Shown: piece by piece, positions 1,427-22,764 of the stretch
Layout of the letters: the number at the start of each line of letters is the position of its first letter
Numbering within the stretch: the first letter of the stretch is position 1
Virus record (IMG/VR): IMGVR_UViG_2602041671_000009
Length of the DNA stretch: 26,300 bases
Reading direction: 5' to 3' (one strand)
From: a virus
Lineage: Duplodnaviria > Heunggongvirae > Uroviricota > Caudoviricetes
Translations under genes and position numbers: made by a program
Notes under the pieces: model-generated
Told to the model about the DNA's origin: nothing
Databases searched by the model: none
The model's input: the letters and a program-made list of their open reading frames with translations, nothing else

Positions 1427-1732
1427 TCAATATACATTTTGCACCTTCGAGATAGTAATGACTGTTACTGTAACATGAGTTACAAACAGCTTCATACCCA
1501 GAGCTACTGATGTATCAACTCGATTCAACAATACCCGATATTTATTCCATGCCTCCAGCAACGATCTTTCTTCCTCCGTTGCGATTTCCAGATCTACAGC
1601 ATCCTGCAGTGGCGCAATATACTCACTGAATTCCTGGATGTAGAACTGTGTGGTGACGGTCTTCCAGCCATTCGGCTCCTGCTGTATCGAAGCATACCAG
1701 GCTATTTCAATATCGCTATGCTGCGGCAGCAT
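1427..1732 (-). CDS. tail fibre assembly (Tfa)-like small ORF, probable gene remnant
   Basis: 101-aa ORF whose central segment ([38 protein letters not shown]) is near-identical to the C-terminal domain of the Tfa at 4238-4813. Flanking residues are unrelated. Confidence 0.45.
1505..1622. repeat. direct repeat copy 1 (tfa 3' segment)
   Basis: About 120 bp aligns at roughly 85-90 percent with 4270-4388 in the same orientation; identical 40-bp core at 1567-1606 versus 4333-4372. Confidence 0.7.
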
Positions 1733-4237: not shown

Positions 4238-4813
4238 CTACGGCAGTGCTGGCCATTCAATATCCTGTGCAGTTGACGTATCAACACGGTTCAGCAACAC
4301 CCGATACTTTTTCCAGGCTTCCAGCAATGAGGTTTCTTCCTCCGTTGCGATTTCCAGATCTACAGCATCCTGAAGTGGCGCAATATGCTCACTGGCTACC
4401 TGCATCAGGCTGTTTTTTGTTTCTTCCGCCTCTCGGATCCGGAACAGTTTTTCTGCTTCTGCATCTTTCACCCAGGCTGTGCCGTTCCACTTCTGAAACT
4501 CCCCTTCCGGCGATAACCAGGTAACATTTTCCGGTAACGGACCGAGTTCAGAAATAAATAACGCGTCCCCTGACGCTACGTCATAAACCGTTTTACCCCG
4601 ATGGTCTTCAACGAGATGCCACGATGCCTTATCACTGTTGAAAACAGCCACAAAGCCAGCAGGAATATCTGGTGGTGCAATATCGGTACTGTTTGCTGGC
4701 AGACCTGTATGAGGCGGAATATATGCGTCACCTTCACCAATAAATTCATTAGTTCCGGCCAGCAGATTATAAATTTTTATGGTCCGTGGTTGTTCACTCA
4801 TTCTGAATGCCAT
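4238..4813 (-). CDS. tfa: tail fibre assembly protein Tfa (lambda-like)
   Basis: 191-aa [34 protein letters not shown]... through ...[29 protein letters not shown]. Matches lambda Tfa from memory. Start overlaps the stop of the upstream fibre ORF. Confidence 0.85.
4270..4388. repeat. direct repeat copy 2 (tfa 3' segment)
   Basis: Partner of 1505-1622; same orientation. Confidence 0.7.
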
Positions 4814-20463: not shown

Positions 20464-21138
20464 ATGAAAACAATCCATGACATCCGGCGGTCTAACGCCA
20501 GAAAACTGAGAGATGGTGTTGGAGGGAATTCTTCCTTTGCCACTATGATTGATCGCGAGCCAACCCAGACCAGCAGGTTTATGGGAGATGGTGCTACTAA
20601 AAATATCGGTGACAGCATGGCACGACACATCGAAAAATGTTTCGACCTGCCTGTCGGATGGCTCGATCAAGAACACCAGACAACGAACATCACAAAAAAA
20701 CCTGATGTTTCAATCACTAATAAACAAATCACATTAGTCCCTGTCATATCATGGGTACAGGCCGGAGCATGGAAAGAAGTTGGATATTCTGAGGTTGATT
20801 TGAGCACAGCAGAAACGTATCCCTGCCCTGTACCCTGTGGGGAAATGACTTATATCTTGCGGGTGATAGGTGATTCAATGATTGATGAGTACCGCCCGGG
20901 AGACATGATTTTTGTCGATCCTGAAGTACCTGCCTGCCACGGTGACGACGTTATTGCATTGATGCACGATACAGGTGAAACCACCTTCAAAAGGTTGATA
21001 GAAGATGGGACACAGCGTTATCTCAAAGCGTTAAACCCAAACTGGCCTGAGCCTTACATTAAGATCAACGGTAATTGCTCTATAATTGGAACTGTGATTT
21101 TCTCAGGAAAACCAAGAAGATACAAAATCAAAGCCTAA
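20464..21138 (+). CDS. cI: CI-type prophage repressor (HTH plus S24 LexA-like peptidase domain)
   Basis: 224-aa ORF with N-terminal HTH and C-terminal GDSM (Ser) ... FSGK (Lys) autocleavage dyad; essentially no SD before the ATG. Confidence 0.8.
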   Translation: MKTIHDIRRSNARKLRDGVGGNSSFATMIDREPTQTSRFMGDGATKNIGDSMARHIEKCFDLPVGWLDQEHQTTNITKKPDVSITNKQITLVPVISWVQAGAWKEVGYSEVDLSTAETYPCPVPCGEMTYILRVIGDSMIDEYRPGDMIFVDPEVPACHGDDVIALMHDTGETTFKRLIEDGTQRYLKALNPNWPEPYIKINGNCSIIGTVIFSGKPRRYKIKA

Positions 21139-21150
21139 TCAATGTTTATG

Positions 21151-21174
21151 AACCTGCTTCGGCAGGTTTTTTAT
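21151..21174 (+). terminator. intrinsic terminator downstream of cI
   Basis: AACCTGC-TTCG-GCAGGTT hairpin followed by a T-run, 13 nt after the cI stop. Confidence 0.65.
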
Positions 21175-21176
21175 AC

Positions 21177-21209
21177 TTGACAATGTACCTATGAGATACA
21201 TAATGTACC
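21177..21209 (+). promoter_or_regulatory. sigma70-like promoter with operator-like ATGTACC repeats (candidate pL-equivalent)
   Basis: TTGACA (21177-21182), 16-bp spacer, CATAAT (21199-21204). Heptamer ATGTACC at 21183-21189 and 21203-21209 shares the TGTAC core with the cI/cro operators. Confidence 0.5.
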
Positions 21210-21351
21210 CAAGAGAAACAACAAACAGGCAGGACGCCCACGAAGTAGCCGCCTGGGGCATATGAAGTCCAGGATGATTCGTTAGCAACAAAAAAGCGCC
21301 CTACAGGACGCTTAGCTCTTTAACAATCTGGATATCCACAACAGTAGTAAT

Positions 21352-21843
21352 CTACAGATTGCCGTTAAGTTTTCTGGACAACTCCTCAATGGATGGAGGC
21401 GATACGTAATCCGGATTTTTATTCATCAGAAACTTATTTTCACAGTGGAGGCACCTGCTTTTATGAAAAAGCTCATCTTCGCTAACCGGGAATGGTTGAA
21501 GTATCGATACTATCTTTTGTCCAAAACATTTTGGGCAAAGATGCATGGTTATGCTGCCACCGTTCACGATTACCTCCTTCGAGTATACAAAAGTACCCGA
21601 CTCAAGTTGGTTAAGGATATAGCCTTCCGTCTGAGCCTCAAAGTTTTCGAATTCTGCAATTTTAGCTTTGAGAGAAGCATTTATTTCTTGATAAGAGCCC
21701 ACCAGTTCAACGAGAGACACGCATTCGCGCTGAATAGACGCAAGCTTTGAGTTCAGCTCACCAATAGCCGCATTTACTTCAGCTTGAGTTTTTGCCTCGT
21801 TCATTAGTTTTGCAATCTGGGCTGTTTCACGAATAGCCGTCAT
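21352..21843 (-). CDS. hypothetical coiled-coil protein with C-terminal CxxC...CxxC zinc-ribbon-like motif
   Basis: 163 aa from ATG 21843 (MTAIRETAQIAKLMNEAKTQAEVNAAIGELNSKLASIQRE...CPKCFGQ...CLHCENK...). Convergent with cI; weak RBS, and the frame is open upstream so the start is uncertain. Confidence 0.45.
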   Translation of the reverse strand: MTAIRETAQIAKLMNEAKTQAEVNAAIGELNSKLASIQRECVSLVELVGSYQEINASLKAKIAEFENFEAQTEGYILNQLESGTFVYSKEVIVNGGSITMHLCPKCFGQKIVSILQPFPVSEDELFHKSRCLHCENKFLMNKNPDYVSPPSIEELSRKLNGNL

Positions 21844-21881
21844 TGCTGCCGTTAATTCAGCGATCACATTGAATACTCTTA

Positions 21882-21927
21882 TTGTTGTTGGGGATATCCA
21901 GATTAACCGAATCCTTGTTGTTGGGGA
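21882..21927. repeat. two direct copies of TTGTTGTTGGGGA(A/T)AT(A)ACCA, 33 bp apart
   Basis: Copies at 21882-21894 and 21915-21927, just upstream of the minus-strand orphan gene start. Confidence 0.55.
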
Positions 21928-22154
21928 ATAACCAGGTCCACCTCGCCTGATGTGGCTAAAAGCAGGCACATAACAGCTAAGTATTTTCAACCAGAGAGAA
22001 TCCTTAGCGTTGTGGTGAATGCGGCTCAGCGCACGCGGGTTAAGGTTGAGGCTGACAGTCGACCTTCTGTGGATACCCACCCGCCTGGTGTGCAACCTTC
22101 GCCAGGCACCGGGAGGCACCCGGCACCACAACTTTATGCTGTGTGTAGTCCTGG

Positions 22155-22198
22155 CGGTACCAGCTTGTACCCTTGCTTCCGGCTGGTACCGTCCTTTT
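22155..22198 (+). terminator. strong hairpin plus T-run (intrinsic-terminator-like) in the GC-rich leader
   Basis: CGGTACCAGC (22155-22164), 17-nt loop, GCTGGTACCG (22182-22191), then TCCTTTTTA. Confidence 0.45.
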
Positions 22199-22336
22199 TA
22201 CAAAACAGAGAAGAGCATCACCGGACGACGGGCTCATAACCCAATCCATCCGGGCGGCGGCCACCACAGGTGTTCTTCTCTGTTTTGTGGAGAAACTAAT
22301 CGGCCTTGCAGGGTCGATATGATGAGGAGCAGCAAA

Positions 22337-22699
22337 ATGGCTAGCGAACGCAGTACTGATGTGCAGGCATTTATCGGGGAGCTGGACGGCGGCGTATTTG
22401 AAACCAAAATCGGCGCAGTTCTCAGTGAAGTCGCTTCCGGTGTGATGAACACGAAAACCAAAGGTAAGGTCTCACTCAACCTGGAAATCGAACCATTTGA
22501 TGAGAACCGTGTGAAAATCAAACACAAACTCTCTTATATTCGCCCGACTAACCGCGGGAAAATTTCCGAAGAAGACACCACCGAAACGCCGATGTATGTC
22601 AATCGCGGTGGTCGCCTGACTATTCTGCAGGAAGACCAGGGACAATTACTGACTCTTGCCGGTGAACCTGACGGAAAACTCCGCGCAGCAGGTCGTTAA
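22337..22699 (+). CDS. hypothetical early-left protein (YfdP-like, 120 aa)
   Basis: ATG 22337 preceded by GAGGAG about 9 nt upstream. The ORF-track frame starts further upstream (22019) across the GC-rich leader and is probably not translated from there. Confidence 0.5.
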   Translation: MASERSTDVQAFIGELDGGVFETKIGAVLSEVASGVMNTKTKGKVSLNLEIEPFDENRVKIKHKLSYIRPTNRGKISEEDTTETPMYVNRGGRLTILQEDQGQLLTLAGEPDGKLRAAGR

Positions 22700-22764
22700 T
22701 ATCGTTCGTAATAAACTGATTATTTATCTCATCACTGAATATCTTTATATAGTGAGGACTTATT

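What the first reader, a model, noticed from the sequence alone, without database searches (positions are those of the whole stretch)
21882..22336. N-less, GC-rich structured leader upstream of the early-left genes
No ORF here has an arginine-rich N-terminus like an N antiterminator. Instead, about 450 bp of unusually GC-rich sequence precedes the first early-left gene, with two 13-19 bp direct repeats (21882-21894, 21915-21927) and a 10-bp perfect stem followed by a T-run (22155-22198). The region may encode a cis-acting RNA element (terminator, attenuator or put-like antitermination RNA) or a small RNA. The long ORF-track frames across it look like GC-driven artefacts.
Basis: partly seen in the sequence, partly recalled or inferred. 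Interest (0 to 1): 0.5.

Follow-up and report, generated by a model that had tools for sequence, protein, structure and literature searches.

The report
Mosaic structured RNA leader, prophage early-left operon
The GC-rich stretch in front of this E. coli prophage's early-left genes does not code for protein: it holds a divergent copy of a known prophage small RNA (STnc100/PasD family), a DicF-like terminator module and a conserved, undescribed hairpin that carries a look-alike of the initiator tRNA anticodon arm.

Summary
The exact 13-nt direct repeats, the GC rise (51-57% against 40-46% nearby) and the 10-bp stem plus T-run are all at the stated coordinates.

The region is non-coding, + strand structured RNA built from modules:
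- 22009-22132: a five-helix core homologous to Rfam STnc100 (42.4 bits, gathering score 47, E 2e-7). Compensatory changes and a family-wide pseudoknot support it. It belongs to a subtype found in repressor-controlled early operons, not in the late region where canonical STnc100/PasD sits. The same core lies unannotated between dicF and dicB in E. coli K-12 Qin.
- 22133-22199: a DicF-like single-stranded stretch plus an intrinsic terminator. A hairpin plus U-run at this position is conserved, with covariation, in 156 of 163 relatives.
- 22200-22288: a 20-bp stem capped by a three-way junction, with no Rfam match and strong covariation. It contains 14 nt identical to the initiator tRNA anticodon stem-loop.

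The direct repeats are not part of the RNA. They belong to inverted repeats that bracket a minus-strand moron gene. There is no N gene and no put-like element. An rrn-type boxA lies about 105 nt downstream of PL.

Most likely mechanism (inferred): PL transcripts give a terminated, Hfq-type small RNA, and read-through past the partial terminator expresses yfdP to int.

Verdict: a new variant of a known kind.

The parts
21177..21204 (+). PL-like sigma-70 promoter (TTGACA, 16 nt, CATAAT) overlapped by operator-like repeats at 21182-21220. It is the only + strand promoter-like site between the cI-like gene and position 22511.
   Evidence: D3. It follows the cI-like ymfK gene (20464-21138) and its terminator (21150-21169).
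21294..21313 (.). Hairpin. On the - strand it is followed by a T-run and looks like the terminator of the moron gene. On the + strand RNA it sits 1 nt before boxA, in the position of the rrn boxB hairpin.
21315..21327 (+). rrn-type boxA, GCTCTTTAACAAT. All 13 nt are identical to the boxA of the E. coli rrnB leader. It lies about 105 nt downstream of the PL -10 element.
   Evidence: single hit in the window. The PL-to-boxA block is conserved in 46 fetched instances and ends where the cassette starts to vary.
21352..21867 (-). Moron ORF of 171 aa (phrog_1244, unknown function), antisense to PL transcription. It is bracketed by 26-nt inverted repeats at 21325-21350 and 21879-21904.
   Evidence: (I1).
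21882..21927 (.). Copy 1 lies inside the right inverted-repeat arm of the moron cassette. Copy 2 lies in the moron's upstream region. Both are outside the conserved RNA block.
21938..21967 (+). Conserved box at the left edge of the shared block: CCACC..GCCUG..GUGG..CAGGC. It could form a small pseudoknot or be part of a divergent promoter region. Its role is unknown.
   Evidence: conserved in the SfV, phiES15, Lelliottia and Buttiauxella loci. Searches place the block boundary here.
21976..22008 (+). P0 hairpin immediately 5' of the core. Relatives carry a longer, insert-bearing version.
22009..22132 (+). STnc100-like core. P1: 22009-17 with 22124-32. P2: 22021-25 with 22031-36 (pentaloop UCAGC, bulged A22033). 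P3: 22037-40 with 22079-82. P4: 22083-90 with 22100-07. P5: 22109-13 with 22119-23 (loop AGGCA). Pseudoknot: AAGGUUG 22042-48 with CAACCUU 22093-99.
22133..22152 (+). Conserved single-stranded linker (UUUAUGCUGUGUGUAGUCCU), similar to the DicF 5' seed. It is the candidate seed for base pairing.
22153..22199 (+). Intrinsic terminator: a 13-bp stem, then C and five U. Its 5' arm GGCGGUACCAG resembles the DicF terminator.
   Evidence: I8; 156 of 163 relatives, 28 distinct stems.
22200..22288 (+). Module C. A 20-bp stem (22200-19 with 22269-88) capped by a three-way junction: helix 22221-25 with 22249-53, helix 22254-57 with 22264-67, and the stem-loop 22230-32 with 22240-42. The stretch 22227-22248 is nearly invariant.
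   Evidence: (I3). No Rfam match.
22229..22242 (+). CGGGCUCAUAACCC: 14 nt identical to the anticodon stem-loop of E. coli initiator tRNA (metY positions 29-42).
22299..22318 (+). Small hairpin just upstream of the Shine-Dalgarno sequence GAGGAG (22324-22329). Relatives have a hairpin here with a different sequence.
22337..22699 (+). yfdP, the first early-left gene (120 aa, phrog_204, unknown function). It is followed by yfdQ, yfdR and further genes up to int.

Best explanation
Window 21938-22336 is the untranslated, highly structured leader of the PL (early-left) operon of an N-less lambdoid prophage. It is assembled from RNA modules that recur in other prophage early operons.

Shown:
- A pseudoknotted five-helix core (22009-22132) is homologous to the STnc100/PasD prophage small-RNA family.
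- A DicF-like single-stranded stretch plus intrinsic terminator follows (22133-22199).
- A conserved 20-bp stem with a three-way junction (22200-22288), a small hairpin and the yfdP ribosome-binding site come next.

Inferred:
- The RNA is made from PL once the cI-like repressor is lost. No other + strand promoter is detectable.
- Termination at 22199 releases a small RNA of roughly 200-260 nt (shorter if processed). By analogy with PasD and DicF it would be Hfq-dependent and would pair with targets through the conserved linker.
- The same terminator works as a partial barrier, so only read-through transcripts express yfdP to int, as in the dicF-dicB arrangement of Qin.
- The rrn-type boxA near PL (21315-21327) probably recruits NusB/NusE-type factors that protect the 1.1-kb untranslated leader from Rho.
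- The long duplex of Module C is a likely RNase III or translation-control site for yfdP.
For: - STnc100 model match at 21979-22202, full length, 42.4 bits, E 2e-7; E 3e-6 over the whole window.
- The invariant family boxes GGUGAAU and ACCGGGAGGCACCCGGCACC are present.
- Core helices are 99% paired. Seven pairs show compensatory change and 0 of 500 shuffles reach the covariation score; slid controls give 37-49% paired.
- P2 is rebuilt by compensatory change: CCCCC/GGNGGG in canonical copies becomes GCGGC/GCACGC here, and other variants occur across 125 genome copies.
- Pseudoknot complementarity averages 6.6 bp, against 4.6-4.7 in controls, with 95 distinct pair types.
- G.U pairs and fold z-scores point to the + strand.
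- This subtype lies downstream of a co-oriented cI-like gene in 89 of 122 viral copies and upstream of yfdP/yfdQ or kil/gam, or in the P1 ban operon. Canonical copies lie between Q and the lysis genes.
- Terminator: 156 of 163 relatives have a hairpin plus U-run at this position, with 28 distinct stems; ST64B shows compensatory changes.
- DicF likeness: local alignment score 39, against a maximum of 32 in 2000 shuffles. The architecture matches the Rfam DicF structure. In K-12 Qin, DicF sits next to an STnc100-like core.
- Module C: 95.4% paired, 9 compensatory pairs, 0 of 500 shuffles.
- No + strand promoter-like site between 21204 and 22511.
- boxA identity with rrnB. NusB:NusE binds rrn BoxA at 5-8 nM and lambda nut BoxA at 80-90 nM (PMC2800207).
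- STnc100 copies are transcribed and one was confirmed by Northern blot in EDL933 (PMC5331693). PasD stability depends on Hfq (PMC8550237).
Against: - The STnc100 score is below Rfam's gathering threshold (42.4 against 47). The DicF score is far below its threshold (15.9 against 48).
- There are no expression, Hfq-binding or target data for this subtype.
- In many relatives the core has no terminator and sits directly in front of a gene (P1, Buttiauxella, Lelliottia, Qin). That fits a cis-acting role better than a free small RNA.
- The invariant loops and the pseudoknot suggest a specific protein or tertiary function that the seed-pairing model does not explain.
- The naive test for pairing with ftsZ was negative or uninformative.
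- The boxA block is absent from SfV, ST64B, mEp460, phiES15, Ayreon and Qin, so it cannot be the general answer to the lack of N.
- rrn-type antitermination is, from my own knowledge, weak against intrinsic terminators.
Confidence: 0.55

Rival explanations
1. The modules have no trans-acting role. They act purely in cis on the mRNA. The core would be a 5' stabiliser or processing module that protects the downstream message after an upstream RNA (a tRNA, DicF or the antisense-moron segment) has been cut away. Module C would be an RNase III or translation-control site.
For: In P1-like phages the core directly follows tRNA genes. In Qin it directly follows DicF and runs into the dicB start. In several genera it sits 25-40 nt before a start codon with no terminator. 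Module C always lies between a terminator and the yfdP ribosome-binding site.
Against: A simple hairpin would be enough for 5' protection, yet loops, junctions and a pseudoknot are invariant across more than 200 variants. Canonical family members are discrete RNAs, one of them Northern-verified, and PasD depends on Hfq. In this window a terminator follows the core.
Confidence: 0.25
2. The core is a put-like processive antiterminator RNA that modifies RNA polymerase so that it reads through the terminator at 22199 and later ones. This was one of the first reader's options.
For: The order promoter, structured RNA, terminator, early genes in an N-less phage recalls HK022 putL. In phiES15-type phages a strong terminator (GCCCGC.., then 7-8 U) separates the core from kil.
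Against: put is about 70 nt with two stem-loops. It starts at the PL transcript start and has a second copy downstream of PR (PMC9378689). Here the core is a 124-nt, five-helix pseudoknot about 800 nt from PL. The window holds a single copy, and the core has no similarity to the HK022 immunity region. mEp460, Stx2c and cdtI-type phages keep the terminator and Module C but lack an intact core. Canonical family members sit in Q-controlled late operons and behave as discrete small RNAs.
Confidence: 0.06
3. The region codes for protein: the 95-aa ORF at 21952-22239, an N-terminal extension of YfdP from 22019, or the frameshifted hypothetical protein that PGAP calls at about 22013-22323.
For: Open frames exist. 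PGAP and several phage records annotate hypothetical proteins here. Some canonical STnc100 copies carry ribosome footprints in EDL933.
Against: No Pfam family matches. Variable sites are spread evenly over codon positions (22/18/28 and 18/17/14). Forty-five close relatives carry scattered indels. A stop lies 18 nt upstream of the ATG in phiNP. The ST64B alignment has single-base indels. Base-pair covariation explains the conservation. PGAP itself has to assume a frameshift.
Confidence: 0.03
4. Module C and its tRNA-like relatives mimic the initiator tRNA anticodon arm. They would act as decoys for tRNA-targeting host nucleases, or as a P-site or initiation-factor mimic that tunes translation of the early genes.
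For: Fourteen nucleotides are identical to the metY anticodon stem-loop, including the three G-C pairs. This segment is nearly invariant while the surrounding helices covary. A related unit with an acceptor-like stem and an RCCA end is the last member of tRNA arrays in Klebsiella phages.
Against: This is resemblance only. ARAGORN and the Rfam tRNA model reject it. In the window the acceptor-like stem and the CCA end are replaced by a long duplex. It could be a domesticated fossil of a tRNA gene. No defence or toxin partner was identified.
Confidence: 0.08

Closest known systems
STnc100 (Rfam RF02076) and PasD1/PasD2 prophage small RNAs
   Same: Same closing helix and the same invariant boxes (GGUGAAU; ACCGGGAGGCACCCGGCACC). 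The same P2 hairpin with a bulge and a UNNGC pentaloop, the same P4-loop pseudoknot, the same P5 AGGCA hairpin and a 3' intrinsic terminator. Both are enterobacterial prophage elements, co-oriented with the surrounding operon.
   Different: It scores below the Rfam gathering threshold. The P2 stem has been rewritten (GCGGC type). It sits in the repressor-controlled early-left operon (or the P1 ban operon) instead of the region between Q and the lysis genes or downstream of stx2. No promoter of its own is detectable. Its 3' part is DicF-like. Expression and Hfq dependence have not been tested for this subtype.
DicF and the dicB operon of the Qin prophage (E. coli K-12)
   Same: Both are small-RNA modules inside the early-left operon of an N-less lambdoid prophage with a cI/cro-like switch. 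A 14-20 nt single-stranded 5' part is followed by a terminator hairpin that starts GGCGGUA.CAG. The downstream genes need read-through. Both lie next to an STnc100-like core.
   Different: The order is reversed: core then DicF-like module here, DicF then core in Qin. The seed differs at several positions. The Rfam DicF score is only 15.9 bits. Complementarity to ftsZ was not demonstrated.
HK022 put RNAs
   Same: A cis-encoded structured RNA between an early promoter and terminators in a phage without N.
   Different: The size, fold, distance from the promoter, copy number and sequence all differ.
Lambda nut/N and rrn operon antitermination (boxB-boxA)
   Same: A hairpin followed by a boxA lies downstream of the early promoter. 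The boxA is identical to the rrnB boxA over 13 nt.
   Different: There is no N protein. The hairpin-then-boxA order follows rrn, not lambda nut. The block is present in only some relatives. Function is inferred only.
tRNA genes and tRNA-like elements of phage tRNA arrays
   Same: Module C contains the initiator tRNA anticodon stem-loop sequence. Its relatives have an acceptor-like stem with an RCCA end and sit at tRNA spacing in tRNA arrays.
   Different: There is no D arm and no T-loop. tRNA detectors do not recognise it. In the window the acceptor stem is replaced by a 20-bp duplex inside an mRNA leader.

Membership tests
STnc100 (RF02076) | Covariance-model score at or above Rfam's gathering score (47 bits) | tested here: not met
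   42.4 bits, E 2.1e-7; E 3.2e-6 over the whole window. Not listed at the gathering threshold.
STnc100 (RF02076) | Closing helix P1 flanked by the invariant GGUGAAU and ACCGGGAGGCACCCGGCACC | tested here: met
   P1 covaries (U-A to C-G in 4 of 11 sequences).
STnc100 (RF02076) | P2 hairpin: a 5-bp stem with one bulged base and a UNNGC pentaloop | tested here: met
   GCGGC-UCAGC-GC(A)CGC here, CCCCC-UGUGC-GG(N)GGG in canonical copies. Further compensatory variants occur among 125 genome copies.
STnc100 (RF02076) | Pseudoknot between the strand after P2 and the loop of P4 (a feature derived here, not part of the Rfam model) | tested here: met
   AAGGUUG pairs with CAACCUU in the window. Family mean is 6.6 bp, against 4.6-4.7 in cross and shuffle controls, with 95 distinct pair types.
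STnc100 (RF02076) | 3' intrinsic terminator | tested here: met
STnc100 (RF02076) | Typical location in the prophage late region (between Q and the lysis genes, or downstream of stx2) | tested here: not met
   Here it lies between the cI-like gene with PL and yfdP. The subtype is systematically in early operons. For the location of canonical copies.
STnc100 (RF02076) | A discrete transcript that is stabilised by Hfq | not testable with these tools
   Known only for other copies (PMC5331693; PMC8550237).
DicF (RF00039) | Covariance-model score at or above the gathering score (48 bits) | tested here: not met
   15.9 bits, E 2.8 at 22140-22194. K-12 dicF scores 76.7 bits.
DicF (RF00039) | A single-stranded 5' part of about 14 nt followed by a terminator hairpin that starts GGCGGUAUCAG | tested here: met
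   UGCUGUGUGUAGUCCU followed by GGCGGUACCAGC...; local score 39 against a maximum of 32 in 2000 shuffles; for the 5' part alone p is about 0.002.
DicF (RF00039) | Complementarity to the ftsZ translation-initiation region | tested here: inconclusive
   Duplex energies were no better than shuffles, and the test barely separated genuine DicF from shuffles (z = -0.99).
HK022 put | An RNA of about 70 nt with two stem-loops that starts at or near the PL transcript start | tested here: not met
   The core is 124 nt, has five helices plus a pseudoknot and lies about 800 nt downstream of PL. put features are taken from PMC9378689.
HK022 put | A second related copy downstream of PR | tested here: not met
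   The window holds a single copy.
HK022 put | Sequence similarity to the HK022 put region | tested here: not met
   Only chance matches of 10-15 nt.
HK022 put | Protein-independent terminator read-through through the RNA polymerase beta' zinc-binding domain | not testable with these tools
   Needs transcription assays.
Lambda N / nut | A small protein with an arginine-rich motif encoded just downstream of PL | tested here: not met
   The + strand ORFs between 21205 and 22337 are antisense to the moron or lie inside the RNA block, and none has an arginine-rich N-terminus. SfV orf33 is not arginine-rich either.
rrn-type antitermination signal | Consensus boxA (GCUCUUUAACAA) preceded by a hairpin, downstream of the promoter | tested here: met
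   21315-21327 is identical to rrnB boxA over 13 nt, and the hairpin 21294-21313 ends 1 nt upstream.
rrn-type antitermination signal | Nus-factor and SuhB-dependent resistance to Rho | not testable with these tools
   Inference from the published affinity of NusB:NusE for BoxA.
tRNA | A cloverleaf recognised by ARAGORN or the Rfam tRNA model | tested here: not met
   No tRNA in the window. The Klebsiella-phage relatives are not called either.

The most novel reading that the evidence does not exclude
The early-left leader carries two RNA structures of unknown function.

(a) The STnc100/PasD core may be a compact pseudoknotted RNA with invariant loops, more like a protein- or ligand-binding RNA than a simple seed-pairing small RNA. 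Its early-operon subtype also sits unannotated in the dicB leader of E. coli K-12.

(b) Module C and the D-armless, tRNA-like genes at the ends of phage tRNA arrays may form an undescribed RNA class built around an initiator tRNA anticodon-arm mimic. It could act as a decoy for tRNA-targeting defence nucleases or as a mimic that controls translation initiation.
Probability: 0.12. Interest if true: 0.8.

Novelty: new variant of a known kind. Interest (0 to 1): 0.5.

Why it matters
**Annotation.** Rfam-based pipelines miss this element. PGAP instead calls a frameshifted pseudogene across it. Parts of the 21150-22760 query match in 3137 of 5426 complete E. coli genomes, and 384 genomes hold at least 80% of it.

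**Family biology.** STnc100/PasD RNAs have been treated as late-region, virulence-associated small RNAs. Here a sister subtype is tied to repressor-controlled early operons, including the classical dicF-dicB locus of K-12. The whole family shares a pseudoknot. Both points constrain ideas about what these abundant RNAs do.

**Phage regulation.** The locus offers a testable picture of how an N-less lambdoid phage runs its early-left operon. An rrn-type boxA would protect a 1.1-kb untranslated leader, a leaky terminator would release a small RNA, and a structured leader carrying a tRNA-anticodon look-alike would sit before the first gene.

Tried and rejected
- **put-like RNA.** I fetched the HK022 immunity region and found no similarity. 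put features were taken from PMC9378689. The window holds only one copy of the core.
- **tRNA or tmRNA.** ARAGORN found none.
- **Protein coding.** Pfam gave nothing for the ORFs across the region. Tests of codon position, indels and stop codons were negative.
- **Moron ORF and YfdP.** Only PHROG families of unknown function matched, and PADLOC gave no hit.
- **A promoter of its own for the RNA.** The consensus scan found none on the + strand. Upstream comparison showed only weak hexamers lacking the conserved T6, which may serve the divergent moron instead. This is unresolved.
- **Targeting of ftsZ by the DicF-like part.** The duplex-energy test was uninformative.
- **K-12 CPS-53 as a model.** It keeps only the last 20 nt or so before yfdP.
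- **EDL933 coordinates** for the published STnc100 copies could not be fetched.
- **Errors made.** An early script failed on file layout. One paper look-up failed. An earlier count gave wrong core coordinates; the second entry corrects them.
Full report
**Context**

The window is an E. coli lambdoid prophage. The stretch 21150-22760 is 99.9% identical to the ECOR29 chromosome and to phage PhiR29_1. Parts of it occur in 3137 of 5426 complete E. coli genomes.

Annotation of the identical ECOR29 stretch gives this order: a cI-like repressor (ymfK, window 20464-21138, + strand), a hypothetical gene on the minus strand, a 'frameshifted hypothetical protein' pseudogene, then yfdP, yfdQ, yfdR and further genes up to the integrase. 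The cro-like ymfT and the replication and Q genes diverge on the other side.

Downstream of ymfK lie a terminator (21150-21169) and an 11-of-12 sigma-70 promoter, TTGACA-16-CATAAT, at 21177-21204, with operator-like repeats. This is the PL equivalent, reading rightward in the window. No other + strand promoter-like site occurs before 22511.

**Check of the observation**

- The 13-mer TTGTTGTTGGGGA occurs exactly at 21882-21894 and 21915-21927.
- The 10-bp perfect arms at 22155-22164 and 22182-22191 extend to a 13-bp stem, followed by C and five T at 22195-22199; the hairpin folds at -23 kcal/mol.
- GC reaches 0.51-0.57 between 21850 and 22449, against 0.40-0.46 in most windows on either side.
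- The + strand of 21938-22340 folds far better than shuffles (z = -6.2). The - strand gives z = -2.9.
- No N-like ORF follows PL.

**The direct repeats are not part of the RNA**

Comparison with phages shows that 21220-21937 is a variable cassette. The conserved block shared with SfV, SfIV, ST64B and others starts at about 21938.

In the window the cassette is a minus-strand ORF of 171 aa (21352-21867; phrog_1244, unknown function). It is bracketed by 26-nt inverted repeats at 21325-21350 and 21879-21904. Repeat copy 1 lies inside the right arm. Copy 2 lies in the moron's upstream region, which is recognisably homologous to the equivalent region of phiES15 and other loci.

**Module 1: an STnc100-like core (22009-22132)**

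A permissive Rfam scan gives a full-length STnc100 (RF02076) match at 21979-22202, + strand, with 42.4 bits against a gathering score of 47 and E 2e-7. The gathering-threshold scan does not list it.

STnc100 is a prophage small RNA. EDL933 has 11 Rfam-annotated copies, most of them transcribed, and one was confirmed by Northern blot (PMC5331693). It was recently linked to the Hfq-dependent PasD1/PasD2 small RNAs of EPEC (PMC8550237; bioRxiv 10.64898/2026.05.13.724894). Canonical copies lie near Q, the lysis genes or stx2.

I collected three sets of copies:
- 120 stretches of viral-contig DNA carrying the window's 5' box;
- 120 stretches carrying the canonical 5' box;
- 125 distinct copies from one genome per species across Enterobacterales.

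Results:
- The window shares the invariant GGUGAAU and ACCGGGAGGCACCCGGCACC.
- RNAalifold on 11 diverse sequences of this subtype recovers P1 to P5. Cells are 99% paired, 7 pairs have changes on both sides, and 0 of 500 shuffles reach the covariation score. Slid controls give 37-49% paired.
- P2 is the clearest case of homology through compensation. Canonical CCCCC-UGUGC-GG(N)GGG becomes GCGGC-UCAGC-GC(A)CGC here. Other genomes have CCUUU/AAAGG, CCAGC/GCAUGG, UCUCC/GGCAGA and further variants.
- The loop of P4 is complementary to the strand just after P2 (AAGGUUG 22042-48 with CAACCUU 22093-99). Across 213 distinct family members this pairing averages 6.6 bp, against 4.6-4.7 for cross-paired or shuffled loops, in 95 different sequence versions at a constant position.
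- The Rfam structure line shows no pseudoknot, and the word does not occur in the 2026 preprint.
- In the window, AAGGUUGA can alternatively pair locally with UCGACCUU. This possible alternative fold has not been tested.

**Where the subtype sits**

Of 122 viral copies of the GCGGC subtype, 89 lie downstream of a co-oriented cI-like gene and 67 lie upstream of yfdP. Others lie upstream of kil/gam (phiES15) or inside the C1-controlled ban operon of P1, between upl and tciA. Canonical copies lie downstream of Q or TciA and upstream of the lysozyme gene. This is therefore an early-operon sister subtype of a late-region family.

It also occurs, unannotated, in E. coli K-12. An STnc100-like core of 34.4 bits (E 1.8e-5) fills the dicF-dicB intergenic region of Qin, with a compensatory P5 (CCUGG/CCAGG).

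**Module 2: a DicF-like stretch and terminator (22133-22199)**

The linker UGCUGUGUGUAGUC is conserved in E. coli, Salmonella ST64B and Cronobacter phiES15 relatives.

Linker plus hairpin resemble DicF, which has a 14-nt single-stranded 5' part followed by a hairpin starting GGCGGUAUCAG. The local alignment score is 39, against a maximum of 32 in 2000 shuffles. For the 5' part alone, p is about 0.002. PhiNP is even closer. The Rfam DicF model gives only 15.9 bits, so I call it DicF-like and not a family member.

A hairpin plus U-run at this position is present in 156 of 163 relatives that carry Module C, with 28 different stem sequences. One example is GGCGGUACC/GGUACCGUC against GUCGGCGUC/GACGCCGAC in ST64B.

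A naive duplex test against the ftsZ initiation region was uninformative.

**Module 3: Module C (22200-22288)**

This module directly follows the U-run. A 20-bp stem (22200-19 with 22269-88) carries a three-way junction.

On 15 diverse sequences, 95.4% of cells are paired (35-51% when slid), 9 pairs have changes on both sides, and 0 of 500 shuffles reach the covariation score. Frequent G.U pairs (for example U.G in 14 of 15 sequences at one position) show that the + strand RNA is the selected molecule. Nothing in Rfam matches it, even at E up to 10.

Its nearly invariant centre, GACGGGCUCAUAACCCAAUCCA, contains 14 nt identical to the anticodon stem-loop of E. coli initiator tRNA (metY 29-42), including the GGG/CCC stem.

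A related unit with the same centre stands as the last unit of tRNA arrays in Klebsiella phages, at tRNA spacing. It has an acceptor-like stem GGCCUG/CAGGCC and an RCCA end, and ARAGORN and Rfam do not call it. Module C thus looks like a derivative of a D-armless tRNA-like gene that has been built into an mRNA leader.

Downstream come the conserved GUGGAGAAAC, a small hairpin (22299-22318) whose sequence varies among relatives, the Shine-Dalgarno sequence and the yfdP ATG at 22337.

**The region is not coding**

- No Pfam family matches the ORFs that cross the region.
- Among 45 distinct close relatives, variable sites are spread evenly over codon positions (22/18/28 and 18/17/14) and indels are scattered.
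- The in-frame extension of yfdP is interrupted 18 nt upstream of the ATG in phiNP.
- The ST64B alignment has single-base indels.

The PGAP 'frameshifted' pseudogene is best read as over-annotation of a structured RNA.

**No N and no put, but an rrn-type boxA**

The core fails the defining features of put. put is about 70 nt with two stem-loops, starts at the PL transcript start and has a second copy after PR (PMC9378689). Here there is a single copy of different size and fold, far from PL, with no sequence similarity.

While checking for nut-like signals I found GCTCTTTAACAAT at 21315-21327. It is identical over 13 nt to the boxA of the rrnB leader. A hairpin ends 1 nt upstream of it, the same hairpin-then-boxA order as in rrnB. 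It is the only such site in the window.

The block from PL to boxA is conserved in 46 fetched instances and ends exactly where the cassette starts to vary. NusB:NusE binds rrn BoxA about tenfold more tightly than lambda nut BoxA (PMC2800207).

The PL transcript runs about 1.1 kb without a translated + strand ORF, so a Nus-factor signal that blocks Rho is a reasonable inference. It is not universal: SfV, ST64B, mEp460, phiES15, Ayreon and Qin lack it.

**Mechanism**

Shown: the anatomy, the homology, the covariation, the strand and the genomic context.

Inferred:
1. The RNA is made from PL on induction.
2. The terminator at 22199 releases a small RNA made of the core plus the DicF-like tail. 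By analogy with PasD and DicF it would depend on Hfq and would pair with targets through the conserved linker.
3. The terminator is leaky, as it must be for dicB downstream of DicF, so it meters expression of yfdP to int.
4. boxA protects the untranslated leader from Rho.
5. Module C, a long perfect duplex 45 nt before the start codon, is a processing or translation-control element.

The main rival is a purely cis-acting role for the core, because many relatives have no terminator and place the core directly after a tRNA or DicF and directly before a gene. The invariant loops and the pseudoknot suggest a specific partner that neither model names.

**Verdict**

It is a new variant of a known kind: an early-operon, sub-threshold STnc100/PasD relative fused to a DicF-like terminator. 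It comes with an undescribed tRNA-derived leader element and an rrn-type boxA, both worth following up. Interest 0.5.

Noticed in passing
window 21294-21327 (+): An rrn-type antitermination signal. The hairpin 21294-21313 is followed after 1 nt by GCTCTTTAACAAT, identical over 13 nt to the rrnB leader boxA, about 105 nt downstream of the PL -10 element. It is conserved in 46 fetched instances but absent from SfV, ST64B, mEp460, phiES15, Ayreon and Qin.
   Followed up: partly
L457 2433-2642 (E. coli K-12 Qin, between dicF and dicB): An unannotated STnc100-like core (34.4 bits, E 1.8e-5) with a compensatory P5 (CCUGG/CCAGG). It starts right after DicF and runs into the dicB start codon.
   Followed up: partly
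L005 2001-2085; also L380, L381, L396, L400 and others: A D-armless tRNA-like unit in Klebsiella phages. It has an acceptor-like stem GGCCUG/CAGGCC with an RCCA end, a long arm ending in a CUCAUAA loop and a variable third hairpin. It is the last unit of tRNA arrays, at normal tRNA spacing. ARAGORN and Rfam do not call it.
   Followed up: partly
window 21325-21350 and 21879-21904: Inverted repeats of 26 nt (85% complementary) bracket the minus-strand moron ORF 21352-21867 (171 aa, coiled-coil N-terminal half, C-terminal CxxC...CxxC, phrog_1244, no Pfam or PADLOC hit). Different cassettes occupy this slot in related phages.
   Followed up: partly
window 21938-21967 (+): A conserved box, CCACCUCGCCUGAUGUGGCUAAAAGCAGGC, at the left edge of the shared block. 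It is present next to different morons in E. coli, Cronobacter, Lelliottia and Buttiauxella loci. It could be a small pseudoknot or part of a divergent promoter (on the minus strand, TTTAGC-17-TATACT in phiES15).
   Followed up: partly
window 22137-22148 and 22283-22296; relatives: GUGUG-rich motifs (CUGUGUGUAG; UUGUGGAGAAAC, or UGUGUGGAGAAAC in relatives) recur after the core and after Module C. They resemble the stretch CUGUGUGGGC that follows boxA in the rrnB leader (L460 341-350). This may be coincidence.
   Followed up: no
window 4272-4470 (-) and 1506-1709 (-): Two matches to the Rfam IS009 RNA. The first scores 226.7 bits, above the gathering score of 117. The second scores 107.7 bits, just below it.
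   Followed up: no
L278, L277, L291, L326 (Superficieibacter) and others: Canonical STnc100-family cores occur in tandem arrays of two or three copies, about 110-270 nt apart, in some Enterobacterales genomes and on Pantoea and Klebsiella plasmids.
   Followed up: no
window about 22013-22323 (ECOR29 locus tag ACS228_RS16870): RefSeq PGAP annotates a 'frameshifted hypothetical protein' pseudogene over the structured RNA. Several phage records annotate small hypothetical proteins there. This is probably systematic over-annotation.
   Followed up: yes
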